Notes: a model not told the origin generated them from the letters alone. A stretch of DNA of 35,721 nucleotides from an uncultured Methanosarcinales archaeon (GCA_964362485.1 CAYIEX010000002.1:1-35721); one strand, 5' to 3'; positions 2,284 to 34,714 are shown, counted from the stretch's first letter. Numbers and translations are program-made.

Positions 2284-2841
2284 ATGAAACCACGCCTTTA
2301 TCTTTTTTCTTTCTTCTTTACCATTCTAATTCTCTTTCTATCCTACAAAATAGCAATTATCGTCACTCCCCTAACCCCACACCAGCAAGAAACATTTAAT
2401 TTTGTATACAATAACCAACCGCTATCGCTCAACTATACCAGTAACGAAGTTTCCCATCTAAGCGATGTCAAGAATGTAACATTCATTGCCGACCTTGTTT
2501 TCTATCTAAGCCTAGCTGTAACAACACTCATTCTCACTTCCATACGCAATAAAAAAGAGTGGCCTCATTTCTTATGGAACGCGAGTATCCACGGAATTTG
2601 CTTTATTGTCCTCACCATCATCGCAATAAGTATCAGCTTTGAAACTATTTTTACCTATTTTCACTACCTTTTTTTTCCACAAGGAAATTGGACCTTCCCT
2701 TTCAATTCATTATTAATTCAGACATTTCCAGAAGAATTCTTTCAGACCATCGCCCTTACAATTTTTGGGTTAGCCATAGCTATCCTAATAGTAATAGCAA
2801 TATTGAGTAGAATAAGAATCAAGAGAATGGGAAGATCATAA
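2284..2841 (+). CDS. Integral membrane protein, possibly DUF1461/TIGR01906-like
   Basis: Four or five hydrophobic segments. The SNEVSHLSDVKNV stretch resembles the conserved H..DVK motif of that family (by eye only). It lies 9 nt after the slyD stop, so it is probably co-transcribed. Confidence 0.45.
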   Translation: MKPRLYLFSFFFTILILFLSYKIAIIVTPLTPHQQETFNFVYNNQPLSLNYTSNEVSHLSDVKNVTFIADLVFYLSLAVTTLILTSIRNKKEWPHFLWNASIHGICFIVLTIIAISISFETIFTYFHYLFFPQGNWTFPFNSLLIQTFPEEFFQTIALTIFGLAIAILIVIAILSRIRIKRMGRS

Positions 2842-3175: not shown

Positions 3176-3187
3176 CCATTGTACCAT

Positions 3188-3937
3188 ATGAATATACCCA
3201 AAATAATGGCCCTTATTACCACTATTCTTCTAATCCTGCCTCTTTTTGAGGCTGCAACTCTCAAAGGAACAATATATGACAGTAATTTGGAACTAGAAAA
3301 CAATGTTTTCGTCCAAATCAACTCAACCCCAGCTCAGCAATACCTTGCCAAAGAAGGAACATATCTTTTTGAACTGCTTCCGGGAACCTATCTGCTTACG
3401 GCCAACACAGAAACAACACGGATTCGTGAAACAATCGAAATCAAAGAAGAAGGCTCATTCATCTACGACCTTTTCATGCTCCCCTCCCTTGAAGAAGAAG
3501 AACAACTCTGGCAAGATACCCAAGAAAATCCGCTCGCTTCCATTGAAGAACCAAATTATGGCATTTGGCCGTATCTAGTCGCAGGGATCCTCTTTGCAAT
3601 TGCCCTTATCCGTATCATCTATTACCGCAGAAAATATGGCTCCGTAAGCTTCTTTCGAAAAAAAATAAAAGCCGAGAGTGTCAAAAGTCTTGATGAAGTA
3701 AAAGCAGAATTAGCACAAGAACCCGCCTATTTCGACCAAGCGTTAGATATCATCCATAAACATGAAGGAAGAATCTCCCAAAAAGAATTGCGTAGAGAAA
3801 TGAACTATCTCTCTGAAGCGAAAGTGAGTCTCATCGTTGCAGAGTTAGAACATCGTGGAAAAATCGAGAAGATTAAAAAAGGACGGGGCAACTTGATCTT
3901 TATTCGCAACAATGAGATCAAAACAGAGACCCGTTGA
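3188..3937 (+). CDS. Membrane-anchored protein: signal peptide, carboxypeptidase-regulatory-like beta domain, one TM, cytoplasmic winged-helix domain (COG2512-like architecture)
   Basis: Signal peptide MNIPKIMALITTILLILPLFEAA. Beta domain GTIYDSNLELENNVFVQI...EGTYLFELLPGTYLLTA. TM helix WPYLVAGILFAIALIRIIYY. C-terminal wHTH: ISQKELRREMNYLSEAKVSLIVAELEHRGKIEKIKKGRGNLI. Start trimmed from TTG 3179 to ATG 3188. Confidence 0.6.
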   Translation: MNIPKIMALITTILLILPLFEAATLKGTIYDSNLELENNVFVQINSTPAQQYLAKEGTYLFELLPGTYLLTANTETTRIRETIEIKEEGSFIYDLFMLPSLEEEEQLWQDTQENPLASIEEPNYGIWPYLVAGILFAIALIRIIYYRRKYGSVSFFRKKIKAESVKSLDEVKAELAQEPAYFDQALDIIHKHEGRISQKELRREMNYLSEAKVSLIVAELEHRGKIEKIKKGRGNLIFIRNNEIKTETR

Positions 3938-5138
3938 CCAAGGATTTGACCTTGCTGGCAGATACCACGATGAAATAGGACAGGTCCGACTTCTCAGTAC
4001 AGCTGAAGAATATGATCTAGCCGATAAAATTGAAGCAAGTTATTACCAAATCTTTGATGTACTATGTAACACTAGAATCAGTGACAGAAGACCACATTAT
4101 TATGGACTAAAACTTCTACGTGAATATCTCGAAAGCGGGATTAGAAAACAAGATATCGAAAAGTATGATGGATCCTTGCGTCGACGCCGAATATTGCCAC
4201 ACCAAGAAGAAGATGCAGAAGAGAGAGAACCTCCGCTTCGCAACAAACATCCAACAAAGCGTCAAGAAGCTTACTTTAATTATTGTTACAGAGAGATTTA
4301 TCTTCGTAAACCCATCCGCCAGGCAGGAATAAGTCTCAGTTCCATCCTCACAAAAAGCCACCACCATGAAGCTAAAAGTCTCTTACTACACGCTGAAAAA
4401 CAACTTGAAAAAGACCGAGAAGATTTCATCCTCGCCAATCGTCGTCTAGTAGCAAGTATCGCCAAAAAATATGTAAACTATGGTCTAAGCTATCTTGATT
4501 TAAATCAGGAAGGGTCCACCGGTCTCATGAGTGCAATCGATAAATATGACCATAAAAAGGGTCATAAATTCTCAACCTATGCAACCTGGTGGATCAGACA
4601 AGCCATGACTCGCGCCACTGCCGATCAAGGAAAGACCATCCGTCTTCCCGTGCACATCCATGAACTCCTTACAAAAATCTACCGAGTACAAAACCAGCTT
4701 TGGCAAGAATTGCATCGTGAACCAACCACCCAAGAGATTGCAGATACACTTGATTTGAAAATTGACAAAATCGTGCGATATATAGACCTAAAAGACCCCC
4801 TTCCCACTTCTCTTCCCGTAGGGGAAAATGAAGAATCTGAACTAGGAGACTTCATCCCCGATACTGATCCTAGTCCCGAAACAAATGTAAATCAACTAGA
4901 AGAGCAACGGATCCTTGACAATCATCTTAGAAAGCTCACGCCGCGCGAAGAATTTGTCATACGAGGACGCTTCGGTCTAGGTTCGTTAAGTATGCCGCAA
5001 TCCTACGGAAAAGACAAAACACTTGATGAAGTAGGAAATGATTTTGATCTGACAAGAGAAAGGATTCGTCAAATTGAAGCCAAAGCAATCCGAAAATTAC
5101 GACAAAAACTAAAATCCAAAGGATTAAATGATGACTAA
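3912..5138 (+). CDS. RNA polymerase sigma-70 family protein, RpoD/SigA-like (regions 1.2, 2, 3 and 4 present)
   Basis: Region 1.2: YHDEIGQVRLLSTAEEYDLADKI. Region 2: NRRLVASIAKKYVNYGLSYLDLNQEGSTGLMSAIDKYDHKKGHKFSTYATWWIRQAMTRATADQGKTIRLPVH. Region 3: LTKIYRVQNQLWQELHREPTTQEIADTL. Region 4.2: TLDEVGNDFDLTRERIRQIEAKAIRKLR. The ATG at 3912 overlaps the upstream gene by 26 nt, and there is no other in-frame start. Confidence 0.85.
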   Translation: MRSKQRPVDQGFDLAGRYHDEIGQVRLLSTAEEYDLADKIEASYYQIFDVLCNTRISDRRPHYYGLKLLREYLESGIRKQDIEKYDGSLRRRRILPHQEEDAEEREPPLRNKHPTKRQEAYFNYCYREIYLRKPIRQAGISLSSILTKSHHHEAKSLLLHAEKQLEKDREDFILANRRLVASIAKKYVNYGLSYLDLNQEGSTGLMSAIDKYDHKKGHKFSTYATWWIRQAMTRATADQGKTIRLPVHIHELLTKIYRVQNQLWQELHREPTTQEIADTLDLKIDKIVRYIDLKDPLPTSLPVGENEESELGDFIPDTDPSPETNVNQLEEQRILDNHLRKLTPREEFVIRGRFGLGSLSMPQSYGKDKTLDEVGNDFDLTRERIRQIEAKAIRKLRQKLKSKGLNDD

Positions 5139-23651: not shown

Positions 23652-23907
23652 AGAAAAAGAAACTTAAGCCCTCTTTTTAAATTATTTGTTTCGTAATACG
23701 CAGTCTATAACAACTCAGCAAACCGCTTAATATCCTTATTTGCCACATGGGTATAAATCTGCATCGTCTGATAGACATAAAAACATTTCACCTAACATCC
23801 CCATTTAGCAACATTAACGAATTAATCTCGCCAAATAGTTGTTATGTTCAATTTTCGAATTACTATTTTGTAATATACGGGAGTTCCTAAAAAGAACGAA
23901 GATAATG

Positions 23908-25737
23908 TCACTTTTTCTTATTTAATCTCTTCTCTAGCTTTAATCTTTTCTCTTTCAAATCAGATGCGCGCTCACGATAATTTAACATTAATTTGTCGTA
24001 ATCTTCACGTGGAATAGAATGACGTTTGAAATATTTCCGTTGCGTGTCTTTTTCCATTTCAAGAACATCGCTTTCTTCTGCTTTTGTTCTTCGCAAGCTT
24101 CCTTTCAGATGTGCCCAGTACCACAAAGGTTCAGTAACTAAGATTAGTAGTAAGAACCCCAACGCAAAAAAATACCAATAGCGAACAAAAACATGGTGAT
24201 AAAACAATCGTGCTTTCAGTTCTCTAGGACCAATATTCTCTATTGTAACTGCTTTCGGATTAAGAGCAATAGAATTTCCATAAATATCAGCAGCACCAAA
24301 GCCAAACGATTTAAGATCCAAATCTCCAGTAGTAAGAACATATGAAGATTCATAAATCCCCGGTGATCTTTCCTGAAGAGTAACTGTTGTGTTCCCAACC
24401 ATAAACAATGCTTCTGCATTCTCAACTTCTGTCCCGTCATCATACTGTAGCTCAACTTCAATCTCAATCCGTTCCCCTACATAATACGTTGTTCGTGTTG
24501 GTCTTACCAATGTAGCATCAATCTGTGCAGATCGGATAATAATGGGAACGCTATTCCCTCCTGCTCTGGTGATATTCTTAATTGTTTTTACCGCTTGTAT
24601 CCTCAATGGCCACTTTCCTAACGCGTCAGTATACTCAATAACGTATTTTCCGCTATACATTCCTGGCTCAACTTCAGCAAGAGTGATTAGTTTTCCATCT
24701 CGATTTCGATAATGTACTTGCGCATTATCAACAGCCTCACCCTCTTCTTTAATTTCTACTGTGATAGGGATGGTTTCACCACGTAAAAACTCACTATTCT
24801 TTGATGGGCTAAGAAACATTACGGCATAAAATACAACTTCTTTCGGTGTTGAAATTTCAGGGGTGAATAGTATTTCTCCTTCATTGCCATCTTCATCTTG
24901 CATGGATATTTGAATGTTCCACTTTCCATCTGGCTCGGCAAAACTGATGAGGAAGCTCGTATCAATTCCTCCTTTGTTGGTTGTATTTAATGTAGTATTC
25001 AAAAGAACTTCACCTGCAGAAATAAGAACAGTTACAGGAACTCCTATAGCAGGAGTGCCGTCAAAATAAGATGCAACACCTTGAATATTAATACGCTCTC
25101 CTTTTTGATATGAATCATCTAACGACATATTAATGTGAATAGTTGGATCAATTGTTACTTGAATCCTCTCTTCATCATACGACGCACGTTCTCCTTTAAC
25201 CGAAATTTCGTATGTTCCAGCTTCAATATCTTTGCCAAGTGTTATGTTCGCCCCATAAATATCACTGCCACGTTTTTCAAAATTACTTACTAAATCTATT
25301 TCTCCAAATAGATTTGATGTGGCACTTACTTTTAAATTTGAATTAGGATAACGCCCTTCAAAACCCTGCACAAGCAAGGGGAACGTTCCTCGTTTGAATG
25401 TCTGCCCTTCGCGAGGAGTTTCAAAAACTATTTTTACAGGAGTTGGACCACTTCCTCCACCATCACTAGTGGCGCTGTCGCTTGGAGCTTCTGAGGAAGG
25501 ATTTGCATCAGGAGGAGGATTTTCATCAGGAGGGGGATTTGCATCAGGAGGAGTAGTTCCACCGTCTCCACCGCCTCCACCGCCTCCACCGCCAGGAGGG
25601 TCGTGTCCTGGTTTATGAGCCATTCCTGTAGGTGCGGCAAGAGGTTCAAAGAATATTAGTGAAGCCATACCAAAAATAACGATAACTAAAGATACAACCA
25701 GAAATATATTCAAAGAGGGCTTCTTTTTCCGGTTCAT
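23908..25737 (-). CDS. Doubly membrane-anchored surface protein: N-terminal TM, Gly/Pro low-complexity region, about 4-5 beta-sandwich-like repeats, C-terminal TM, basic coiled-coil tail
   Basis: TM1 LNIFLVVSLVIVIFGMASLIFF. Low-complexity HDPPGGGGGGGGGDGGTTPPDANPPPDENPPPDANP. Repeated units of about 90 aa with the pattern G(E/T)..I.V.V...G..V..A.V......PG.Y.....G.W.I (for example ERINIQGVASYFDGTPAIGVPVTVLI, ETIPITVEIKEEGEAVDNAQVHY, ERIEIEVELQYDDGTEVENAEALF). TM2 YWYFFALGFLLLILVTEPLWYW. Tail ...RERASDLKEKRLKLEKRLNKKK. Its ATG overlaps the upstream stop (ATGA). Confidence 0.65.
   Translation of the reverse strand: MNRKKKPSLNIFLVVSLVIVIFGMASLIFFEPLAAPTGMAHKPGHDPPGGGGGGGGGDGGTTPPDANPPPDENPPPDANPSSEAPSDSATSDGGGSGPTPVKIVFETPREGQTFKRGTFPLLVQGFEGRYPNSNLKVSATSNLFGEIDLVSNFEKRGSDIYGANITLGKDIEAGTYEISVKGERASYDEERIQVTIDPTIHINMSLDDSYQKGERINIQGVASYFDGTPAIGVPVTVLISAGEVLLNTTLNTTNKGGIDTSFLISFAEPDGKWNIQISMQDEDGNEGEILFTPEISTPKEVVFYAVMFLSPSKNSEFLRGETIPITVEIKEEGEAVDNAQVHYRNRDGKLITLAEVEPGMYSGKYVIEYTDALGKWPLRIQAVKTIKNITRAGGNSVPIIIRSAQIDATLVRPTRTTYYVGERIEIEVELQYDDGTEVENAEALFMVGNTTVTLQERSPGIYESSYVLTTGDLDLKSFGFGAADIYGNSIALNPKAVTIENIGPRELKARLFYHHVFVRYWYFFALGFLLLILVTEPLWYWAHLKGSLRRTKAEESDVLEMEKDTQRKYFKRHSIPREDYDKLMLNYRERASDLKEKRLKLEKRLNKKK
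25499..25592 (-). repeat. In-frame coding tandem repeats: 3 x 18 bp (PPPD[A/E]N) and about 3 x 9 bp (Gly run)
   Basis: On the + strand, GGATTTGCATCAGGAGGA / GGATTTTCATCAGGAGGG / GGATTTGCATCAGGAGGA at 25499..25552, and TCTCCACCG CCTCCACCG CCTCCACCG at 25565..25591. Confidence 0.8.
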
Positions 25738-26846
25738 TTTCCAATCTCCGCGAATACTTCTTGTTCCGGATAGACAGTTATTCCCTTATCGTTAATTGAC
25801 ATAGCAACAATATTCTTCTGATGTTTTGCCCCCCTCATCTTCAACACTTCAATGGCATTTTCTCTCATATCACTATGCTTGATTGCATACAAAACAATTA
25901 CCCCATCGGCAAGAAACTCTTCAACACCTTCCCTGGAAAATATTGTGGGTACCTGCTCAGTTTCAGAGATTAAAAACGTGGTAACATTGAGTGTTTCAAG
26001 ATAACGGAACAATTGTTCAATAAAAACCCTATACCCTTCACCTTTCCTAGGAAACGCAGCGGCTATCGCTGTAATCGAATCGATAGCAATTCTATCCGGC
26101 TTGAACCCTTTTGGAATGATATCTATTACTTCATTAATATCAATCAACAACTCCCCTTTTGCTTTAGCTAACATTGCTTCCACGCTGGTGGTCAACGCAA
26201 ATGGATCCTTGCGTACAATTCTCAGGGTTCCGTCTTTCTCCATTTTTTTCCAGTCCCATCCAAAATCATCCATGTGTTCCCTTAATCGTTGTTCAGATTC
26301 TTCAAAACTAAGATAGAGACATTTTTCACCTTTGGATGCAGCATCTGCAAGAGTCTGGAGGCAAAAAATAGTTTTTCCAGAACCAGCGCCGCCCGCAATA
26401 AGTAATGAGATGTTTTTGGGGATCCCTTTCTCAAAGAGGTCATCAAACCCAGGGATACCAGTAAGAAGATATTTTCTTCCTTTCTCTTTTAGAATGGTCT
26501 TTCCAGAAATTTTCTGAAGTGGTTTGCGCTGTTTTTTAATCTGCTGCGTAATGCCCTTCTTAATAGTAGCCATGGAAGAAGAGGAAGAAGCATCTTGTTT
26601 TGGAGAAGAGATTTTGCTTTCTTTAATATCTCTTTTAATATTTTCGTTCTCTAAATGCTTCTTGGTAGATTGTTTTATAGGTTTCTTTTCTTTTGCGCCG
26701 GAAATCTTGTTATTACTTTTCTGTTTAGGTTTTACTTTCTTCACACTAGAACTTTTGTTTTTATTTTTGTTATCTTTCTTTCTAATTTGCTCTAATTTGC
26801 TCTTGCTCTCTTTTTTTCCTTTCTTAGTAACCCCATCTTTTTTCAT
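25734..26846 (-). CDS. Single-domain KaiC/RecA-like ATPase with an N-terminal Lys-rich disordered tail of about 120 aa
   Basis: GIPGFDDLFEKGIPKNISLLIAGGAGSGKTIFCLQTL (Walker A), YLSFEESEQ (catalytic Glu pair), IAIDSITAI (Walker B), TTFLISE and LKMRGAKH. Tail: MKKDGVTKKGKKESKSKLEQIRKKDNKNKNKSSSVKKVKPKQKSNNK... Confidence 0.8.
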   Translation of the reverse strand: MKKDGVTKKGKKESKSKLEQIRKKDNKNKNKSSSVKKVKPKQKSNNKISGAKEKKPIKQSTKKHLENENIKRDIKESKISSPKQDASSSSSMATIKKGITQQIKKQRKPLQKISGKTILKEKGRKYLLTGIPGFDDLFEKGIPKNISLLIAGGAGSGKTIFCLQTLADAASKGEKCLYLSFEESEQRLREHMDDFGWDWKKMEKDGTLRIVRKDPFALTTSVEAMLAKAKGELLIDINEVIDIIPKGFKPDRIAIDSITAIAAAFPRKGEGYRVFIEQLFRYLETLNVTTFLISETEQVPTIFSREGVEEFLADGVIVLYAIKHSDMRENAIEVLKMRGAKHQKNIVAMSINDKGITVYPEQEVFAEIGK

Positions 26847-26872
26847 AGTATGTTCCTGATAGTAATTATTGC

Positions 26873-27421
26873 TTAAACCCTGATAACTTTGTCACAAAGT
26901 TGTGCAATCTCCAAACGTATTTCCTTTTCTGTTTCGGCATCCATAGAGATTATAATACCATTCGTGCTCTGATTGCGCATTTTTGTTAAGATTGAATGGA
27001 TAAACCTTGCTAAAGTTTTTGATTCATTATGGATGAGCATGGAGGTAATAGAGTCAATAAAAACAAACTTCTTCCCTTTGATGCTTTTCATGGCCTCTCC
27101 AAGAGCTACCGCCATCTCTGTCAATGCTGTGGAATGCTGGACATGAACAACATTGTCTGGTGTTTTATCTTTTTTATCTTTACCACAAACCGAGCAGATT
27201 ACAAAGAGTTTTTCCTTAGCAATGCCACTTTCTCTAAGCGATGAGATCAAACTAGAGCAGGGCTTGTTAGCAGAGAGGATAATGCCGGTATATCTCTTGC
27301 CAACTAATATCTTAAGAGCTTCCCGGCTGATTGACACAATTTTAGAAGATGTTGTTTCTAACATGACAACCCAATCTTCGGGAAGATTCTCTAATTCCTT
27401 CTTGAGCTTCGCAATGCCCAT
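26873..27421 (-). CDS. P-loop-less KaiC/RecA-like domain protein (DUF835-like), paralog 2
   Basis: Colinear with a KaiC domain but lacks GxxGxGKT (VVMLETTSSKIV instead). Keeps the Walker-B-like strand FVFIDSITSM, plus GIILSANKP and NGIIISMD. Its ATG overlaps the upstream stop (TAATG). Confidence 0.55.
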   Translation of the reverse strand: MGIAKLKKELENLPEDWVVMLETTSSKIVSISREALKILVGKRYTGIILSANKPCSSLISSLRESGIAKEKLFVICSVCGKDKKDKTPDNVVHVQHSTALTEMAVALGEAMKSIKGKKFVFIDSITSMLIHNESKTLARFIHSILTKMRNQSTNGIIISMDAETEKEIRLEIAQLCDKVIRV

Positions 27422-27999
27422 TAATTCACCTTCAGAGTTTTGTCAACTTTTAAAGCCACATCCTGGATAAATTTTTTTTGTGTAAGTCCTTGGGCAACAT
27501 TAAATATCAGCCGAACGTCTTTTTCATTTTTCACTGTCCGCATTAGAAATTCTGAAAAACGTAATGTTTCAGAAAGAGGTTTGTATAAAGTGAGTGTTGT
27601 TAACGAATCAATGAAAATAAATCTCTTCCCTTTCAGCGTATCCAGAGAAGTATATACAGCTTTTACTAGTTCATCAACATTAATGTCTTTTGAGATAGAG
27701 ATACACCTTTCATCTTTTTTCATTTTGACTTCACTTTTCTTTTTGTTCTCTTTCTCTTGCGTTAGCGCAGCAGCTACATCAATAAAAATGATCGTCTTTA
27801 AATCAACGCCATGTTTTTTCAATAAAGAAGAAATGCTAGAAAACGGACGATGAAAGCTCACATATACGCAGGAATACCCTGCTTTTTGCAGCACTTTAAT
27901 CGTGTTATAATTCTGTTCAAAATAAGATTCCTCGGGGAGCTCTAACATTATTATTTTGCTTTCTTTTAGTGTAGAATGAAGAAGTTTTCCAATTACCAT
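27421..27999 (-). CDS. P-loop-less KaiC/RecA-like domain protein (DUF835-like), paralog 1
   Basis: KIIMLELPEESYF replaces the P-loop. CVYVSFHRP, FIFIDSLTTL and VRLIFNV are retained. ATG 27999 lies 2 nt after the upstream stop. The alternative GTG at 28005 would give a GTGA overlap. Confidence 0.55.
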   Translation of the reverse strand: MVIGKLLHSTLKESKIIMLELPEESYFEQNYNTIKVLQKAGYSCVYVSFHRPFSSISSLLKKHGVDLKTIIFIDVAAALTQEKENKKKSEVKMKKDERCISISKDINVDELVKAVYTSLDTLKGKRFIFIDSLTTLTLYKPLSETLRFSEFLMRTVKNEKDVRLIFNVAQGLTQKKFIQDVALKVDKTLKVN

Positions 28000-28001
28000 T
28001 T

Positions 28002-29528
28002 TCACACCTTTTTCTTAAATTTGTTTCCTATCTTAATGCCGGATTGTTCGGTAGTATACTGCCAAATATTTTTATCATGCGATGATCCTCTCAATTTTAA
28101 CACATGAAGAAGTTTTTCCACCCTTTGCCCACGCTCTACATAGCGCAGCATGATAATACCGTCTACGATTGAACTTAAACGTAATTCGGTGGAAGCTCCG
28201 CCACCAAGAAGATTGCCAGAGCGAGATTCAAATACTGACTCGGAGAGATAGGTGAATACGCAGGTAATTCCAAACGACTTGCAAAATCCTGCGAACTGCA
28301 ACAAAAACTCCCTCACTTGATTCTTATTTATAGCAGCACTTTCCAAGGAGGAGGTTGAATCAAAGACGATTCTTTTGAGCTTCATCTTTTTTGTAGTATT
28401 AACAATATCATAGAGAATCCTATCCGGATAAATATCTATCAAACCTGGGTTCAGGAATTTTAATATTCCTGATTTTTCATATTTTTCCAAGTCCAACCCA
28501 TGCCCTGTTGCTGTCTTTTTTATCTGAGTAATGGACTCTTCCAGTGCAACATACAAACACGGCTCATTTTTTTTCAACCCAGCCATCAAAAAATGAATTC
28601 CAAAAGTTGTTTTTCCTGAGCCCGTGTTTCCGACAAGCATAACCATATGTCCTTGTGGATATCCACCACCGATAAGCTGGTTAAATTTAGGAACTCCAGA
28701 ATCCAATCTAATCTTAAATTCAGTTGAGGCAACTTTCAAATCAATTGGAATTTTTGGATAAATTATCAGGCCGTCAGAATTGATGTCAAAGATAACTGCT
28801 CCGGTTCTAAACTCAATGCCGCGCATCTTAATTACTTGTAGCCGCCGAACCATCTGGTTTTCACCAGGAATATTTGTCAGACAGATGATACCATCGGAGA
28901 TGTATTCTTCAACACCATATACTGAATAGCTACCCTCTTTTGGGATTTCACTTGTCAGGATAGTTGTACAACCAAGTGTTGCTAAGACTTTATTCAATTC
29001 AAAAATAAATGAACGCACTTTGTCACGGTCATTGATGATATAAAGAATCGCAGTAATAGAATCAATAACTAACCGCTGCACCTTATGTTTTTTGACGTGA
29101 TCCTCAATAAATTTTAATGTTTTCTCCTGGTTAAATGTTTTGTGATCCAAGATATCGCGAATGTCAAGCACCAGTAACTTCTCATCTTCTACTGCTTTAC
29201 GGTCAAAAAAACTCATCGTTTCCGCATTACGTAAGGTCATAAACAATGATTCCGTCATAGTGATATACATGCCATTCTCACCATTCTTTACCCCGTCAAA
29301 GAGCCATTGTAAACAAAGAATAGTTTTACCGGAACCTGAAGATCCGGCAAGAAGTAGTATGATATCTTTAGGCAGACCGCCATTAAGCATTTCGTCTAAA
29401 CCGACAATCCCTGTTTTAACACGAGGAAGCATGTGTCTCTCCTGTAGCGATTTTTCAGGTAGAGTTTTAGAATGTTTTTTCTTTTGAGAAGTTTTAGAAT
29501 GTGTTGTAGGATTTTTCAAATCTTTCAT
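28002..29528 (-). CDS. Two-domain KaiC-like ATPase
   Basis: Domain 1: GIVGLDEMLNGGLPKDIILLLAGSSGSGKTILCLQW, LVIDSITAI, LQVIKMRG. Domain 2: SGVPKFNQLIGGGYPQGHMVMLVGNTGSGKTTFGIHF, YVALEES, IVFDSTSSL, LHVLKLRGSSH. The track start at 29537 is a GTG. ATG 29528 has GGGGTG (SD-like) 7-12 nt upstream. Confidence 0.85.
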   Translation of the reverse strand: MKDLKNPTTHSKTSQKKKHSKTLPEKSLQERHMLPRVKTGIVGLDEMLNGGLPKDIILLLAGSSGSGKTILCLQWLFDGVKNGENGMYITMTESLFMTLRNAETMSFFDRKAVEDEKLLVLDIRDILDHKTFNQEKTLKFIEDHVKKHKVQRLVIDSITAILYIINDRDKVRSFIFELNKVLATLGCTTILTSEIPKEGSYSVYGVEEYISDGIICLTNIPGENQMVRRLQVIKMRGIEFRTGAVIFDINSDGLIIYPKIPIDLKVASTEFKIRLDSGVPKFNQLIGGGYPQGHMVMLVGNTGSGKTTFGIHFLMAGLKKNEPCLYVALEESITQIKKTATGHGLDLEKYEKSGILKFLNPGLIDIYPDRILYDIVNTTKKMKLKRIVFDSTSSLESAAINKNQVREFLLQFAGFCKSFGITCVFTYLSESVFESRSGNLLGGGASTELRLSSIVDGIIMLRYVERGQRVEKLLHVLKLRGSSHDKNIWQYTTEQSGIKIGNKFKKKV

Positions 29529-29563
29529 CAGTAACACCCCTTTATAACTAACTTAATTTCTAT

Positions 29564-29578
29564 CTATTTATAAATATT
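29564..29578 (-). promoter_or_regulatory. TATA-like box (minus strand AATATTTATAAATAG) upstream of the KaiC-like operon
   Basis: Centred about 43 nt upstream of ATG 29528. This is compatible with a short leader of about 15 nt carrying the SD-like GGGGTG. Confidence 0.4.
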
Positions 29579-29627: not shown

Positions 29628-29738
29628 TTATAGCAACTGTTTGAAATGATAGTTTATGTCCGCTGGGACAACCACTTTAAACTCAACTTCTTGTGTTTCT
29701 CCACTTTTAATAAGAGCTGATAGTTCTTCTGATTTCAT
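29628..29738 (-). pseudogene. 36-aa ORF resembling only the N-terminal tip of an AlbA_2/Schlafen-type domain (possible gene remnant)
   Basis: Manual translation gives MKSEELSALIKSGETQEVEFKVVVPADINYHFKQLL*. The SGE(T/S)..(V/L)EFK start is typical of AlbA_2-domain proteins, but the ORF stops after 36 aa. Confidence 0.2.
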
Positions 29739-30606: not shown

Positions 30607-31056
30607 ATGATCCATTCTGAACAAGTAAAAACATTATTGTGGTCGGTTCTAGGTCTAGCTGGAATAATCACATTCTGGCGTGGAATTTGGGAAGGCGCAT
30701 CCTACATCCCAATCATTGACTCCCTTTGGATAAGTCTATTTTTAGGCCTGATCATGATGGCAATTACAGCATTCATGTTCCAAAATCAGCCGCTACAAAG
30801 TTCAGAGAAAATAATTCGCTCTCTGCAAAACCATCCTCAAAAACAGGAATTTCATCTCAAATATAGAGACAACTTAATCAATAAAGAAGTAGCCATTCCT
30901 GCCCATCACATTAAAAAAGTTCAAAAAGGTTTTGTCACCATTGAAGATAAAGACACCGGAATGGATTACTTCTTGCCCATTGAACGTATCGTAGAAACAA
31001 CCTTCCAAGGTAAAACGCATTGGAAGAAAGCCAAGAAAGCAGAGGAAGCAGCATGA
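30607..31056 (+). CDS. Two-TM membrane protein with a C-terminal DUF504/UPF0248-like domain, paralog 1
   Basis: LLWSVLGLAGIITFWRGIWEG and SLWISLFLGLIMMAITAFMF. C-terminal EFHLKYRDNLINKEVAIPAHHIKKVQKGFVTIEDKDTGMDYFLPIERIVETTFQGKTHW resembles the Y.I.Y..R......I....I....F......IPyHRI..I...G..W pattern (by eye). Confidence 0.5.
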   Translation: MIHSEQVKTLLWSVLGLAGIITFWRGIWEGASYIPIIDSLWISLFLGLIMMAITAFMFQNQPLQSSEKIIRSLQNHPQKQEFHLKYRDNLINKEVAIPAHHIKKVQKGFVTIEDKDTGMDYFLPIERIVETTFQGKTHWKKAKKAEEAA

Positions 31057-31490
31057 TAATGCGCGAACAAGACAAGCACTTTCTCTGGTCACTCTTTGGA
31101 GCCATCGGTCTGATCCTTTTCTGGCGCGGTGTCTGGGAGCTTCCCGCAGACCTTCACTTCAATGATTTACACTGGATCAGCCTTTTTATAGGTTTACTAA
31201 TCCTCACCATCTCCGGACTTGTCTTTCGTGAGTTCGATCCTCTTGGTGGACTTGAAAAAACCTTAGGCAACACATTTCGCCATATTTACAATGCCCAAGA
31301 TAAGGCAAACTATGTCATAATTTATCATCACCCCGGTTTAAAAAAGGATGTACATATCAACGGCGCTGCCTTGCGAAGTGTAGAACAAAACTACCTCATC
31401 TTTGAAGATGCTAAGAAAAAAGAATTCTTCGTGCCATTCGACCATATTACTGAAATTAATCATGACGGAAAAATGTATTGGCGATTCTAA
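31053..31490 (+). CDS. Two-TM membrane protein with a C-terminal DUF504/UPF0248-like domain, paralog 2
   Basis: FLWSLFGAIGLILFWRGVWEL and LHWISLFIGLLILTISGLVF. C-terminal NYVIIYHHPGLKKDVHINGAALRSVEQNYLIFEDAKKKEFFVPFDHITEINHDGKMYW. ATG 31053 overlaps the upstream TGA (ATGA). The track start at 31020 is a TTG. Confidence 0.5.
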   Translation: MIMREQDKHFLWSLFGAIGLILFWRGVWELPADLHFNDLHWISLFIGLLILTISGLVFREFDPLGGLEKTLGNTFRHIYNAQDKANYVIIYHHPGLKKDVHINGAALRSVEQNYLIFEDAKKKEFFVPFDHITEINHDGKMYWRF

Positions 31491-32098
31491 TGAAACACAA
31501 CACTCAAACGACCAATCATCGGCAGCCAAAAAAGCGAATTCTCAGTAAAAAAGCAATCACTGCTATAATGGGAACGGTTCTGCTCATCACCTTTGCTGTT
31601 GCTATCGGCTCCGTCGTAATGAGCTTAGGTAGTGCTGAAGTGGAAGAGGAAGCAGAATGTGCCATAGATATCAACATGAAATTAGCGCAAATCAAAGGCG
31701 TTGATCAATTATGCTATAATCAAGCTAAAAACACAATTACATTTACCATCGAAAACGGCAAGAATATCAAAGTAGAAGGTCTCATTATTAATATCCTAGG
31801 TACTGAAAAAGCAGAAACCGCAGAATTAAATGAAGCGAAAATCACCAAAGCCGGAACCTATTTGGGAAAAGTACCGTACAACAAAGTACTTGCCGGAGAT
31901 TTGCAACAGGTCAAAATTATCCCTAAAGTAACTCTCTATGATGAAGAACAAATTTGTACCGAAAAAGCACTTATCATTGAAGATTTTCCACTATGTCCCG
32001 GATCATCTGCCCCAGCTAAGACACAACCAAAAGCTCCTGCTGCGAAAAAACCAGCCACTTCTCCTGCAAAAAAAGCACCAGTGAAGATAACAAACTAA
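31490..32098 (+). CDS. Archaeal type IV pilin-like protein (class III signal peptide) with an Ala/Pro/Lys-rich C-terminal tail
   Basis: MKHNTQTTNHRQPKKRILSKKA/ITAIMGTVLLITFAVAIGSVV has a basic stretch, a small residue, then the hydrophobic I(T/S)xIxGTVLLI typical of archaeal prepilin N-termini. The ATG overlaps the upstream TAA (TAATG). The track start at 31478 is a TTG. Confidence 0.55.
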   Translation: MKHNTQTTNHRQPKKRILSKKAITAIMGTVLLITFAVAIGSVVMSLGSAEVEEEAECAIDINMKLAQIKGVDQLCYNQAKNTITFTIENGKNIKVEGLIINILGTEKAETAELNEAKITKAGTYLGKVPYNKVLAGDLQQVKIIPKVTLYDEEQICTEKALIIEDFPLCPGSSAPAKTQPKAPAAKKPATSPAKKAPVKITN

Positions 32099-33463: not shown

Positions 33464-34714
33464 TTATGAAAACCGGAGATCGATAACCCGTTTTACTCTA
33501 TCCGCAACATACGCAGAAGCAAAAACTCTCTTGGTGGCAATACCTAAATCACGAACCTCATACGGTACACGAGCAAACAATGTACCCTCTTTAACAAACG
33601 TATCTCGATTTCTTTTCTTAAATTCAGCTGCAAATTCAACCATTGTAATGGGAGGCCCCTCACGAATAAAATGAGGAGGAAGTTCCTTCTTCTTCACAAC
33701 AAAGTACAACACAGCATGTGGTGCGACCCACTCCCATCCTTTACGATGAATCTCAAACGGTGAAAGACTAATCTCTATTTGCTCAAAGACTTTAAGTAAC
33801 TTTGAACCAACAACATCTTTTTTACCTGCGAGCGGCTCAATGACCGCAAAAACCAAGTGATGTTTTGCACGCTTAGTCTCGGCCGATAATGAATCGAAAT
33901 TTAACTGCTTTACAATAAAAAAATCCGAAGATGGCTTTTTAAGATAAGCTTTAGCACGTGCTTTAAAGAGACTAAATTTCTCTTTCCCCAGAGCCGCCGC
34001 CGCATTACGACTCTTATCCACCGGATCAATAACAATAAGTGGCGATTGCAATTTAGATTGGTTAAGCTCAAATAAAGCCATTTTTCGGGGATAATATTTC
34101 TCCACATCAATAATATGTGGTTCTTTCCAAGTGGTCGCCCCTTCTAGTAATTTTACAAAAGAGCCATAATGAACAACTACTATCTCCAGAACATAACCAC
34201 TAAAACCAGCAATATACGACTCTGCACCATAAAGATCAGCAGCTTTAGCAAATTGTTTTGCAAGACGTATCTCATCCTTAAGATTTTTAGCTTTCACATT
34301 CACCCACGCACTATGAAGAGGTGATATATCGGTAATATTTTTAGCCTCAGCCGCTTTAGAAATCTTAAGGATTGGAACAACCTCAAATGTAATGGATTCT
34401 ACTGCAAGTTGAAAATAATCTCGGCTTCCATGCAACCTTGTAATAACAGCCTTCGGAAACGCTTTTTTAAGCACAGGCTCAAGTAAATCAGAAAGTTGAG
34501 CTGACTTCTCTGCATACTTCTTGTAATCATAAATCACAAAAATATCCGCATCATGCGTAGGATTCAACCACGTATCCTTCGCACCACTTCCCCCCAAAAT
34601 AACCTGAGCATCATGTAACTTCGTTTGCAGGGTTGAAATAAAAGCCTGTACAGTACCTAAGAACACTTTTTTTTGAGTATCCGTAGGCTTAATTACTGCT
34701 AGTACCGACTCCAT
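33464..34714 (-). CDS. cca: CCA-adding tRNA nucleotidyltransferase, archaeal class I
   Basis: GGSGAKDTWLNPTHDADIFV nucleotidyltransferase motif, with length and layout typical of the archaeal enzyme. TATA box (minus strand TATATATAAAAC) is centred about 29 nt upstream. Confidence 0.8.
   Translation of the reverse strand: MESVLAVIKPTDTQKKVFLGTVQAFISTLQTKLHDAQVILGGSGAKDTWLNPTHDADIFVIYDYKKYAEKSAQLSDLLEPVLKKAFPKAVITRLHGSRDYFQLAVESITFEVVPILKISKAAEAKNITDISPLHSAWVNVKAKNLKDEIRLAKQFAKAADLYGAESYIAGFSGYVLEIVVVHYGSFVKLLEGATTWKEPHIIDVEKYYPRKMALFELNQSKLQSPLIVIDPVDKSRNAAAALGKEKFSLFKARAKAYLKKPSSDFFIVKQLNFDSLSAETKRAKHHLVFAVIEPLAGKKDVVGSKLLKVFEQIEISLSPFEIHRKGWEWVAPHAVLYFVVKKKELPPHFIREGPPITMVEFAAEFKKRNRDTFVKEGTLFARVPYEVRDLGIATKRVFASAYVADRVKRVIDLRFS

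What the first reader, a model, noticed from the sequence alone, without database searches (positions are those of the whole stretch)
23908..29578. Five-gene KaiC-like ATPase, pseudo-ATPase and repeat-rich transmembrane protein cluster
Seen in sequence: five co-directional minus-strand genes are joined by TAATG and ATGA overlaps, a 2-nt gap (or a GTGA overlap if the GTG start is used) and a 26-nt gap, under one TATA box. Gene 1 is a two-domain KaiC-like ATPase with two intact Walker A motifs (GSSGSGKT, GNTGSGKT). Genes 2 and 3 are tandem paralogs of 182-192 aa. They are colinear with a KaiC/RecA domain and keep the Walker-B-like strand (FIFIDSLTTL, FVFIDSITSM) but have no P-loop and lack the C-terminal K(M/L)RG segment. 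Gene 4 is a single-domain KaiC-like ATPase (GGAGSGKT, FEES) with an extremely Lys-rich N-terminal tail of about 120 aa. Gene 5 is a 609-aa protein with TM helices at both ends, a Gly9/PPPDxN low-complexity region, four or five beta-sandwich-like repeats predicted outside the cell, and a basic coiled-coil cytoplasmic tail. Established knowledge: KaiC/RecA-like ATPases form hexamers and have been proposed from comparative genomics to act as signal-transduction hubs in archaea; DUF835 is a KaiC-related family of unknown function. Inference: this is a dedicated module in which a surface-exposed sensor or adhesin is coupled through its cytoplasmic tail to a mixed ring of active and inactivated KaiC-like subunits, and the Lys-rich tail may contact nucleic acid or membrane. 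In an episymbiotic DPANN-type cell this could relate to host contact. I do not recognise this exact five-gene arrangement as a described system.
Basis: partly seen in the sequence, partly recalled or inferred. Interest (0 to 1): 0.78.

Follow-up and report, generated by a model that had tools for sequence, protein, structure and literature searches.

The report
KaiC ATPase cluster tied to surface protein
This archaeal operon joins two KaiC-type ATPases and two enzymatically dead KaiC copies to a cell-surface protein with a conserved inner tail, and it is most likely an uncharacterised signalling module that links the cell surface to the cytoplasm.

Summary
Five co-directional minus-strand genes at 23908-29537 encode:
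- a two-domain KaiC (g1);
- two paralogous P-loop-less KaiC-fold proteins (g2, g3);
- a single-domain KaiC with a tail that is 31% lysine (g4);
- a 609-aa membrane protein with four beta-sandwich domains and a helical cytoplasmic tail (g5).

The cluster is not a one-off. It joins two conserved sub-modules.
- **Sub-module A** is KaiC, g2 and g3, often followed by a g4-type KaiC. It occurs in DPANN, Hadesarchaea and Thermoplasmatota. Of 27 g3 anchors, 22 have g2 directly upstream, and 28 of 29 have a KaiC within 5 kb.
- **Sub-module B** is the g4-type KaiC next to g5. Of 16 g5 anchors with both flanks available, 14 have g4 directly adjacent.

All five genes recur in order in L008 and L056.

Evidence for a signalling role:
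- All 15 g1 orthologues keep the Ser-Ser/Thr dyad at the KaiC phosphosite position.
- Thermoplasmatota g1 orthologues are fused to PAS or to PAS-GAF-HisKA-HATPase domains.
- Other loci insert CHASE or dCache-HAMP-PAS sensors, or lie next to type IV pilus operons.
- The g5 transmembrane segment and tail recur on giant Ig-repeat surface proteins beside KaiC clusters.

Best reading: a KaiC-centred regulatory module wired to a surface protein. The mixed-ring idea, the role of the lysine tail and the link to host contact remain untested. It is a new variant of a known kind.

The parts
29565..29574 (-). TATA-like box TTTATAAATA upstream of g1. A GGGGTG Shine-Dalgarno-like motif precedes ATG 29528.
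   Evidence: Read from the sequence. Promoter function is inferred, not tested.
28002..29537 (-). g1, a two-domain KaiC-like ATPase. It is 511 aa from GTG 29537, or 508 aa from ATG 29528, which is the more likely start.
   Evidence: Pfam KaiC twice, E = 3e-98. Full-length alignment to solved KaiC structures, E = 9e-78. NCBIfam circadian KaiC scores fall below the cut-offs.
28752..29420 (-). g1 N-terminal (CI-like) domain: Walker A GSSGSGKT, TMTES in place of FEES, Walker B LVIDS, IKMRG.
   Evidence: The Thr-Glu signature occurs in all 15 orthologues.
28014..28709 (-). g1 C-terminal (CII-like) domain: GNTGSGKT, ALEES, IVFDS, LKLRG.
28170..28175 (-). Codons for Ser455-Ser456 of g1, which align with the KaiC phosphorylation sites S431/T432.
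   Evidence: Alignment to KaiC structures. The S-(S/T) dyad is present in 15 of 15 orthologues. The identity of the reference sites comes from established knowledge. Phosphorylation itself was not tested.
27421..27999 (-). g2, an inactivated KaiC-fold protein (192 aa from the ATG) with no P-loop.
   Evidence: KaiC 23.5 bits, below the cut-off. Conserved family. 99.8% hhalign probability against the g3 family.
26873..27421 (-). g3, an inactivated KaiC-fold protein (182 aa) of the DUF7504 type. The P-loop is replaced by ETxxxK and EES by (S/N)(R/K)P, and the K(M/L)RG end is missing.
26472..26846 (-). g4 N-terminal tail (residues 1-125), Lys-rich and probably disordered (inferred from composition), containing a KKQRKPLQK motif.
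   Evidence: 31% Lys, net charge +32. Basic tails and the motif recur in g5-linked orthologues. No Pfam match.
25761..26468 (-). g4 KaiC ATPase domain (GGAGSGKT, SFEES, IAIDS, LKMRG).
   Evidence: Pfam KaiC 192 bits. Alignment to KaiC structures.
25645..25713 (-). g5 N-terminal hydrophobic segment (residues 9-31), either a signal peptide or a signal anchor.
   Evidence: Hydropathy and flanking charge. Model helix 7-29. Cleavage-type motifs in homologues.
25447..25644 (-). g5 low-complexity linker (Gly9, PPPDxN repeats).
   Evidence: Translation. pLDDT below 50. Direct repeats D2 and D4.
24238..25440 (-). g5 ectodomain: four tandem beta-sandwich (macroglobulin/Ig-like) domains.
   Evidence: MG2 38.8 bits. 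AlphaFold model. Foldseek matches to complement C3, alpha-2-macroglobulin, titin and adhesin repeats.
24115..24189 (-). g5 C-terminal transmembrane helix (residues 517-541).
   Evidence: W521, Y522, T535 and W539 are invariant.
23911..24102 (-). g5 cytoplasmic helical tail (residues 546-609), carrying the conserved motif QRKYF..I.RE.YDKLM..YRER.
   Evidence: Best-conserved region of the family. The same TM-plus-tail module occurs on giant Ig-repeat proteins beside KaiC clusters. No Pfam or PDB sequence match.
23889..23896 (-). T-run (TTCTTTTT) 12-20 nt after the g5 stop. Candidate archaeal terminator.
   Evidence: Read from the sequence. Termination is inferred.

Best explanation
The cluster is a KaiC-centred regulatory (signal-transduction) module connected to the cell surface.

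**Shown.**
- g1 is a full-length two-domain KaiC homologue with intact nucleotide-binding motifs and the conserved Ser-Ser dyad at the KaiC phosphosite position.
- g2 and g3 are strongly conserved paralogues with a KaiC fold that have lost the P-loop and the catalytic glutamates.
- g4 is an intact single-domain KaiC.
- g5 is a membrane protein with an Ig/MG-like ectodomain and a conserved cytoplasmic tail.
- The core of KaiC plus g2 plus g3 is conserved across archaeal phyla.
- g5 is linked almost obligatorily to a g4-type KaiC.

**Inferred.**
- g1 forms a hexamer whose ATPase and autophosphorylation state is the stored signal.
- The g2/g3 pair acts as a non-catalytic adaptor that reads or sets that state. 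KaiB or SasA on KaiC, and the inactive RecA-like subunits of Elp456 or the Rad51 paralogues, are precedents for this kind of role.
- g4 docks on the cytoplasmic tail of g5 and couples the state of the surface protein to the KaiC core, or the reverse.
- The output is probably control of surface adhesion structures.

The direction of information flow is not resolved.
For: - **Domains and motifs:**
- **g3 fold:**
- **g2/g3 paralogy:**
- **Family size:** 1444 representative clusters at E <= 1e-10.
- **Conserved gene order:** KaiC-g2-g3(-g4) in DPANN, Hadesarchaea and Thermoplasmatota. 22 of 27 g3 anchors have g2 directly upstream, and 28 of 29 have a KaiC within 5 kb.
- **Links to signalling domains:**
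  - g1 orthologues are fused to PAS, or to PAS-GAF-PAS-HisKA-HATPase_c.
  - CHASE, dCache-HAMP-PAS and HNOB/V4R genes lie inside the clusters.
  - g3-type domains are fused to KaiB-like plus V4R, to DUF835, to membrane anchors, to coiled coils, and once to a g4-type KaiC.
- **g4-g5 linkage:** 14 of 16 loci, in both tandem and convergent orientation.
- **Tail conservation, and its reuse on giant Ig-repeat proteins beside KaiC clusters:**
- **Type IV pilus operons next to the cluster:** 12 Thermoplasmatota loci, plus one locus (L025) where T2SSE and T2SSF lie about 7 kb downstream.
- **Published context:** KaiC-family ATPases are already linked to archaeal type IV pilus loci (PMC4858521) and to motility control through CirA (PMC10983859).
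Against: - There is no biochemical or expression evidence.
- No recognisable output domain, such as a DNA-binding or enzymatic effector, lies within the five genes.
- The window itself has no pilus ATPase or platform gene, so the proposed output is borrowed from other lineages.
- The g3-g4 fusion rests on a single low-coverage 2.3-kb contig.
- Neighbourhood conservation partly reflects shared ancestry among related groundwater lineages.
Confidence: 0.6

Rival explanations
1. The ATPases are an assembly or energising accessory for a surface structure, comparable to ArlH with ArlI/ArlJ in the archaellum. On this reading g4, helped by g2/g3, drives or gates deployment, clustering or turnover of the g5 surface protein or of pili. 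It does not relay a signal.
For: FlaH is the top structural match of g3. The clusters sit next to complete type IV pilus operons in Thermoplasmatota. g4 and g5 are strictly adjacent. KaiC-family genes are known near T4P loci (PMC4858521).
Against: ArlH NCBIfam scores are far below the cut-off: 92 against 215 for g1 and 35 for g4. The window has no secretion ATPase or platform gene. The PAS/HisKA fusions and the Cache/CHASE sensors point to signalling. The conserved phospho-dyad of g1 is typical of KaiC timers and switches.
Confidence: 0.2
2. The proteins form a recombination or repair mediator complex of RadA/Rad51 paralogues. The Lys-rich tail of g4 would bind DNA, and g2/g3 would be inactive paralogues like Rad55-Rad57. 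g5 would be an unrelated neighbour.
For: The fold belongs to the RecA superfamily, with structural and sequence matches to RecA and to the RadA paralogue Sso2452. The g4 tail has a net charge of +32.
Against: The best matches by far are to KaiC, not to RadA or RadB. RadA and RadB NCBIfam scores are far below their cut-offs. No repair genes are conserved in the neighbourhoods. The conserved partners are membrane sensors, PAS/HisKA domains, pili and Ig-repeat membrane proteins.
Confidence: 0.05
3. g2/g3, with or without the KaiC proteins, form an Elp456-like inactive RecA-type ring that acts on tRNA.
For: There are weak Pfam hits to Elong_Iki1 (g3, 20.1 bits) and PAXNEB (g1). tRNA-related genes lie nearby in some loci: a CCA-adding enzyme in the window and in L004, Elp3 in L034, and TYW1 in L003.
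Against: The Pfam hits are below the cut-offs. The tRNA genes differ from locus to locus, are not adjacent, and are expected by chance in small gene-dense genomes. The consistent partners are KaiC ATPases and membrane or sensor proteins.
Confidence: 0.03
4. g5 is an ordinary surface protein that only shares an operon with the KaiC genes because the genome is compact. There is no functional coupling.
For: Small genomes pack unrelated genes into operons. The closest relative by g2 identity (L037, 75%) has only g1-g2-g3, without g4 or g5.
Against: g4 is adjacent to g5 in 14 of 16 informative loci at 40-55% identity and in different orientations. The cytoplasmic tail is the most conserved part of g5. 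The tail recurs on otherwise unrelated giant proteins beside KaiC clusters.
Confidence: 0.05

Closest known systems
Archaeal KaiC-like 'signal transduction hub' neighbourhoods, including inactivated KaiC (iKaiC) domains (Makarova, Galperin and Koonin 2017; cited in PMC5847659 and PMC10983859)
   Same: KaiC ATPases are combined with KaiC homologues that have lost ATPase motifs, and with variable sensor and input domains. The whole picture was predicted from comparative genomics only.
   Different: The 2017 paper could not be read here, so I cannot say whether the KaiC2-g2-g3-KaiC1 order, the g4-g5 pair or the shared cytoplasmic tail are listed in it. g3 fits DUF7504, not the iKaiC families named in PMC5847659 (DUF835, MEDS).
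Cyanobacterial KaiABC oscillator
   Same: g1 is colinear with KaiC over both domains (E = 9e-78). It keeps Walker A and B, the CII catalytic Glu-Glu and a Ser-Ser dyad at the S431/T432 position.
   Different: Scores are below the NCBIfam equivalog cut-offs. CI has only one catalytic Glu. No KaiA or KaiB was found in the window. The partners are P-loop-less KaiC-fold proteins instead.
ArlH (FlaH) of the archaellum, and CirA of Haloferax volcanii
   Same: These are single-domain KaiC-like proteins that regulate a surface machine (ArlH with ArlI; CirA represses motility, PMC10983859). FlaH is the best structural match of g3. KaiC-family genes sit next to T4P loci (PMC4858521).
   Different: ArlH scores are below the cut-off. 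The window has no arlI or arlJ. g2 and g3 lack the P-loop that ArlH retains.
Heteromeric rings of inactive RecA-like subunits (Elp4-5-6; Rad51 paralogues such as Rad55-Rad57)
   Same: They are a precedent for paralogous RecA-fold proteins without catalysis that work as obligate partners. g2 and g3 are a conserved tandem pair.
   Different: There is only weak sub-threshold sequence similarity, no evidence of ring formation here, and a different genomic context.
Bacterial and eukaryotic macroglobulin (MG) domain proteins and Ig-repeat adhesins
   Same: The g5 ectodomain is a string of MG/Ig-like beta-sandwiches.
   Different: There are no thioester, bait-region or A2M domains, and the protein is only 609 aa. 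It carries a C-terminal TM helix and a conserved cytoplasmic tail with no Pfam or PDB sequence match.

Membership tests
KaiC/RecA-like ATPase domain (Pfam PF06745) | Profile match above the gathering score | tested here: met
   g1 328 bits (two domains), g4 192 bits and g3 31.9 bits, against a cut-off of 26.6. g2 scores 23.5 bits, below the cut-off, but is homologous to the g3 family at 99.8% hhalign probability.
KaiC/RecA-like ATPase domain (Pfam PF06745) | Walker A, Walker B and catalytic glutamate(s) | tested here: met
   Met for g4 and for g1 CII. g1 CI keeps one Glu (TMTES). Not met for g2 and g3, where the P-loop is replaced and EES is lost. These two are inactivated members.
Circadian clock KaiC (NCBIfam TIGR02655 / NF006799 equivalogs) | Score above the equivalog cut-off | tested here: not met
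   256 against 546, and 340 against 408.
Circadian clock KaiC (NCBIfam TIGR02655 / NF006799 equivalogs) | Ser/Thr phosphorylation dyad in CII | tested here: met
   S455-S456 align with S431/T432. The dyad is S-(S/T) in 15 of 15 orthologues. Phosphorylation itself cannot be tested with these tools.
Circadian clock KaiC (NCBIfam TIGR02655 / NF006799 equivalogs) | KaiB (and KaiA) partner genes | tested here: not met
   None of the 33 window proteins scanned has a KaiA or KaiB Pfam hit. ORFs under 120 aa were not scanned, so a KaiB-sized (~100 aa) gene could have been missed. A KaiB-like domain (23.7 bits, below the cut-off of 27) occurs fused to a g3-type domain elsewhere (P0305).
ArlH/FlaH archaellum protein (NCBIfam NF052589) | Score above the cut-off, and arlI/arlJ neighbours | tested here: not met
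   g1 92 bits and g4 35 bits, against a cut-off of 215. The window has no T2SSE or T2SSF genes.
DUF7504 (PF24336), inactivated KaiC-like family | Profile match above the gathering score | tested here: met
   g3 31.5 bits against 27. Many homologues carry the same precomputed hit. g2 has no hit.
DUF7090 (PF23365) | Profile match above the gathering score | tested here: not met
   g2 19.3 bits and g3 12.4 bits, against 27.
DUF835 (PF05763) | Profile match above the gathering score | tested here: not met
   g3 17.4 bits against 33.1. A g3-type domain is fused to a true DUF835 domain in P0236.
GvpD gas-vesicle regulator | GvpD P-loop domain as the best match, and gvp neighbours | tested here: not met
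   PF07088 scores 35-36 bits, but these hits overlap much stronger KaiC hits. The window has no gvp genes.
Alpha-2-macroglobulin / complement family | MG domains together with bait, thioester and A2M domains | tested here: not met
   Only MG2 was found (38.8 bits), with generic MG/Ig-like fold matches. No TED or A2M hits.
Known anti-phage defence systems (PADLOC) | Match to a defence protein model | tested here: not met
   Only weak local matches that lie over the Walker A positions.

The most novel reading that the evidence does not exclude
DPANN-type and other archaea have an undescribed transmembrane coupling system. Surface proteins with varied Ig-repeat ectodomains, from 450 to more than 2600 aa, share one dedicated TM helix plus cytoplasmic tail (QRKYF..Y..M..Y..R). 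That tail docks a specialised single-domain KaiC with a basic tail, which in turn talks to a phospho-switching two-domain KaiC through a conserved pair of pseudo-KaiC adaptors. This would be an archaeal counterpart of receptor or integrin-type signalling, and it may govern attachment to surfaces or host cells.
Probability: 0.3. Interest if true: 0.8.

Novelty: new variant of a known kind. Interest (0 to 1): 0.57.

Why it matters
KaiC-like ATPases are abundant in archaea and have been proposed as the main archaeal signalling hubs. Almost none has a defined partner set.

This cluster offers a compact, widely conserved partner set:
- a KaiC that keeps the phosphosite dyad;
- two strongly constrained pseudo-KaiC proteins;
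- a second KaiC;
- a membrane protein whose conserved tail is a concrete candidate docking site.

That makes the hub hypothesis directly testable by co-expression, ATPase and phosphorylation assays, and complex prediction.

The organism is known only from metagenomes. Identical proteins recur in contigs named Hain_H51, from the 0.1 and 0.2 um series. If the link to Ig-repeat surface proteins and pili holds, it would point to how such cells regulate adhesion.

Tried and rejected
- **The Makarova 2017 paper.** It is not held under its DOI or its PMC id. I could not check whether this operon is already listed there.
- **Literature searches.** Searches for DUF7504, DUF7090, DUF835, iKaiC and KaiC plus DPANN found nothing specific.
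- **Defence system.** Rejected. PADLOC gives only weak local matches that lie over the Walker A positions.
- **RNA elements or structured repeats in the cluster.** Rejected. There are no Rfam hits. The repeats reflect only paralogy (Walker A of g1 and g4; the Walker-B strand of g2 and g3) and the low-complexity linker.
- **Known domain for the g5 tail or the g4 Lys-rich tail.** None was found in Pfam or in PDB sequences.
- **Elp456-like tRNA role.** Considered because of weak Iki1 and PAXNEB hits and scattered tRNA-related neighbours. Rejected because the hits are sub-threshold and the neighbours are inconsistent.
- **Organism names from cluster look-up.** No organism names or accessions were returned.
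- **Short ORF upstream of g1.** It has no Pfam hit.
- **Bacterial-type promoter and terminator scan.** Not used, because the organism is archaeal.

Full report
**What is in the window**

The ORF listing finds five co-directional minus-strand ORFs:
- g1 28002-29537 (511 aa);
- g2 27421-28005 (194 aa from a GTG, 192 aa from ATG 27999);
- g3 26873-27421 (182 aa);
- g4 25734-26846 (370 aa);
- g5 23908-25737 (609 aa).

g1/g2 is a GTGA overlap or a 2-nt gap, g2/g3 is TAATG, g3/g4 is a 26-nt gap, and g4/g5 is ATGA. GGTG-type Shine-Dalgarno-like motifs precede the ATG starts of g1, g2 and g3. TTTATAAATA lies at 29565-29574, and a T-run follows the g5 stop.

Independent assemblies carry identical g3 (L069-L071), and the longest, L069, has the same gene order. 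Their record names are Hain_H51, 0.1 and 0.2 um. Their gene calls are 192, 182 and 370 aa. The rest of the window carries archaeal housekeeping genes: ribosomal protein S6e, a CCA-adding enzyme, FtsZ, IleRS and ProRS.

**The proteins**

- **g1** has two KaiC domains (Pfam E = 3e-98) and aligns end to end with solved KaiC structures (E = 9e-78). It scores below the NCBIfam cut-offs for circadian KaiC. The first domain has TMTES where KaiC has FEES. The second keeps ALEES and has Ser455-Ser456 at the position of the KaiC phosphosites. In all 15 orthologues that precede a g2-g3 pair, the Thr-Glu signature of domain 1 and the S-(S/T) dyad of domain 2 are conserved.
- **g4** is an intact single-domain KaiC. 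It follows a 125-residue tail that is 31% Lys with net charge +32.
- **g3** passes the KaiC and DUF7504 thresholds but covers only profile positions 50-186. Its AlphaFold model (pLDDT 88.6) matches FlaH, PH0284, Sso2452, KaiC and RecA.
- **g2** is just below the KaiC threshold, but its family profile matches the g3 family at 99.8% probability over 182 columns.
- Both the g2 and g3 families are strongly conserved (mean column identity 54-62%), with motifs that replace the P-loop and the catalytic glutamates. They are constrained proteins, not decaying copies. A profile search finds 1444 representative clusters at E <= 1e-10.
- **g5** (model pLDDT 81) has an N-terminal hydrophobic helix, a disordered Gly/Pro linker and four beta-sandwich domains. 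One of these passes the MG2 threshold, and the fold matches complement and alpha-2-macroglobulin MG domains, titin and adhesin repeats. A TM helix and a helical tail of net charge +8 follow.

**Conservation of the arrangement**

A scan of species-representative genomes seeded with the g3 family returned 28 loci. A metagenome scan seeded with the g5 family returned another 28. Further loci came from look-ups of single proteins.

- The order KaiC-g2-g3, often followed by a g4-type KaiC, is found in MAGs labelled Aenigmatarchaeota, Micrarchaeota, Iainarchaeum, Nanoarchaeota, Woesearchaeota, Pacearchaeota, Hadesarchaea and many Thermoplasmatota.
- 22 of 27 informative g3 anchors have g2 directly upstream, and 28 of 29 have a KaiC within 5 kb.
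- g5 homologues (40-55% identity) have a g4-type KaiC directly adjacent in 14 of 16 loci with both flanks present. The orientation is tandem in some and convergent in others.
- All five genes in the same order occur in L008 and L056.
- The closest relative by g2 identity (75%) has only g1-g2-g3.

The window therefore joins two conserved sub-modules in one operon.

**Evidence bearing on function**

- Thermoplasmatota g1 orthologues carry C-terminal PAS domains, and one carries PAS-GAF-PAS-HisKA-HATPase_c.
- Other clusters contain CHASE or dCache-HAMP-PAS membrane sensors and an HNOB/V4R protein.
- g3-type domains occur fused to several partners:
  - a KaiB-like domain plus V4R;
  - DUF835;
  - membrane anchors;
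  - coiled coils;
  - a cytidylyltransferase-like domain;
  - once, through a Lys-rich linker, a g4-type KaiC. On that contig the next gene is a g5 tail.
- In 12 Thermoplasmatota loci the cluster lies next to a complete type IV pilus operon with a lectin-type pilin, and in one further locus (L025) T2SSE and T2SSF lie about 7 kb downstream.
- The cytoplasmic tail and TM helix are the best-conserved part of g5.
- An HMM of that region also hits the C-termini of giant Ig-repeat proteins (446-2685 aa) encoded beside KaiC clusters in L006, L028, L064 and L068. These share the motif Q(R/K)KYF..I..Y..M..Y..R.
- The tail has no Pfam or PDB sequence match.
- Basic N-terminal tails carrying a KKQRxP(F/L)QK motif are specific to the g5-linked g4 orthologues.

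**Interpretation**

The best-supported reading is a KaiC-centred regulatory module. It comprises a phospho-switching two-domain KaiC, a pair of pseudo-KaiC adaptors, and a second KaiC tethered to the cytoplasmic tail of an Ig-repeat surface protein. Its inputs or outputs are at the cell surface.

Published comparative work already links KaiC-family ATPases to archaeal pilus loci (PMC4858521). It also proposes them as signalling hubs with inactivated homologues (cited in PMC5847659 and PMC10983859), and CirA gives genetic support for control of motility (PMC10983859).

The physical contacts, a mixed ring, the role of the Lys tail and any role in host contact are inference only.

Four rival readings are weaker, for the reasons given in their entries: an ArlH-like assembly accessory, a RadA-paralogue repair complex, an Elp456-like complex, and chance co-location.

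**Novelty**

The general concept is known.
- the specific conserved core;
- the obligate g4-g5 pairing;
- the shared tail module;
- the g1 subfamily signature.

I rate this a new variant of a known kind, of moderate to good interest.

Noticed in passing
window 3912-5138 (+): A full bacterial-type sigma-70 gene (Pfam regions 1.2, 2, 3 and 4, each above its cut-off) sits in a contig otherwise carrying archaeal housekeeping genes (S6e, archaeal CCA-adding enzyme, FtsZ). The upstream gene 3179-3937 has the DUF7343 domain (55.2 bits, above its cut-off).
   Followed up: partly
window 2284-2841 (+): An ORF matches Lit, the lipoprotein intramolecular transacylase (66.5 bits). I know this as a bacterial lipoprotein-modifying enzyme, so it would be another bacterial-type gene in this archaeal contig.
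   Followed up: no
window 31478-32098 (+): A 206-aa protein has an N-terminal KKA/ITAIMGTVLLI segment and a weak Pilin_N match (19.1 bits, below the cut-off of 25.2). It may be a type IV pilin-like surface protein, about 2 kb upstream of the cluster's promoter, on the opposite strand.
   Followed up: partly
window 30607-31056 and 31020-31490 (+): Two overlapping ORFs (149 and 156 aa) have similar sequences and look like tandem paralogues. Each has an N-terminal hydrophobic region and a C-terminal soluble domain. Neither has a significant Pfam match.
   Followed up: partly
window 29628-29738 (-): A 36-codon ORF (MKSEELSALIKSGETQEVEFK...) lies in the 330-nt spacer upstream of g1. From memory it resembles the start of AlbA_2/Schlafen-type DNA-binding domains, so it may be a gene remnant. 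It has no Pfam hit.
   Followed up: partly
g1 residues 92-97 (window about 29247-29264), and orthologues in L001-L068: Every two-domain KaiC that precedes a g2-g3 pair has x-T-E-(P/S) in domain 1 where KaiC has F-E-E-S. This subfamily signature removes the first catalytic glutamate of CI.
   Followed up: yes
P0305; L001 6805-7344: One protein combines a KaiB-like domain (23.7 bits, below the cut-off of 27), a V4R domain and a g3-type pseudo-KaiC domain. An HNOB/V4R gene sits inside the Aenigmatarchaeota cluster. This suggests small-molecule or gas sensing feeds into the same module.
   Followed up: partly
L010, L011, L013, L015, L018, L020-L022, L024, L027, L029, L032: In Thermoplasmatota the KaiC/pseudo-KaiC cluster lies next to a type IV pilus operon (T2SSE, T2SSF, a small pilin, a large Laminin_G_3 pilin and DUF7289), convergent with it in most loci and divergent in L022.
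   Followed up: yes
L016 (6.8-kb Micrarchaeota contig): The g2-g3-KaiC2 unit appears twice in tandem, about 4.3 kb apart. The two g3 copies give identical search scores. This is either a real tandem duplication or an assembly artefact.
   Followed up: no
g5 homologues P0122, P0123, P0126, P0129, P0130, P0135 (alignment A2, columns 60-100): Several g5 homologues carry Cys-rich CGDGxCxGxExCxxCxxDCGxC modules after the signal sequence, at the position where the window protein has the Gly9/PPPDxN linker.
   Followed up: no
window 33464-34714 (-); L004 5273-6412: A CCA-adding enzyme gene lies within a few kb of the cluster in the window and directly upstream of the KaiC gene in a Thermoplasmatales genome. 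This is probably coincidence or residual synteny.
   Followed up: no
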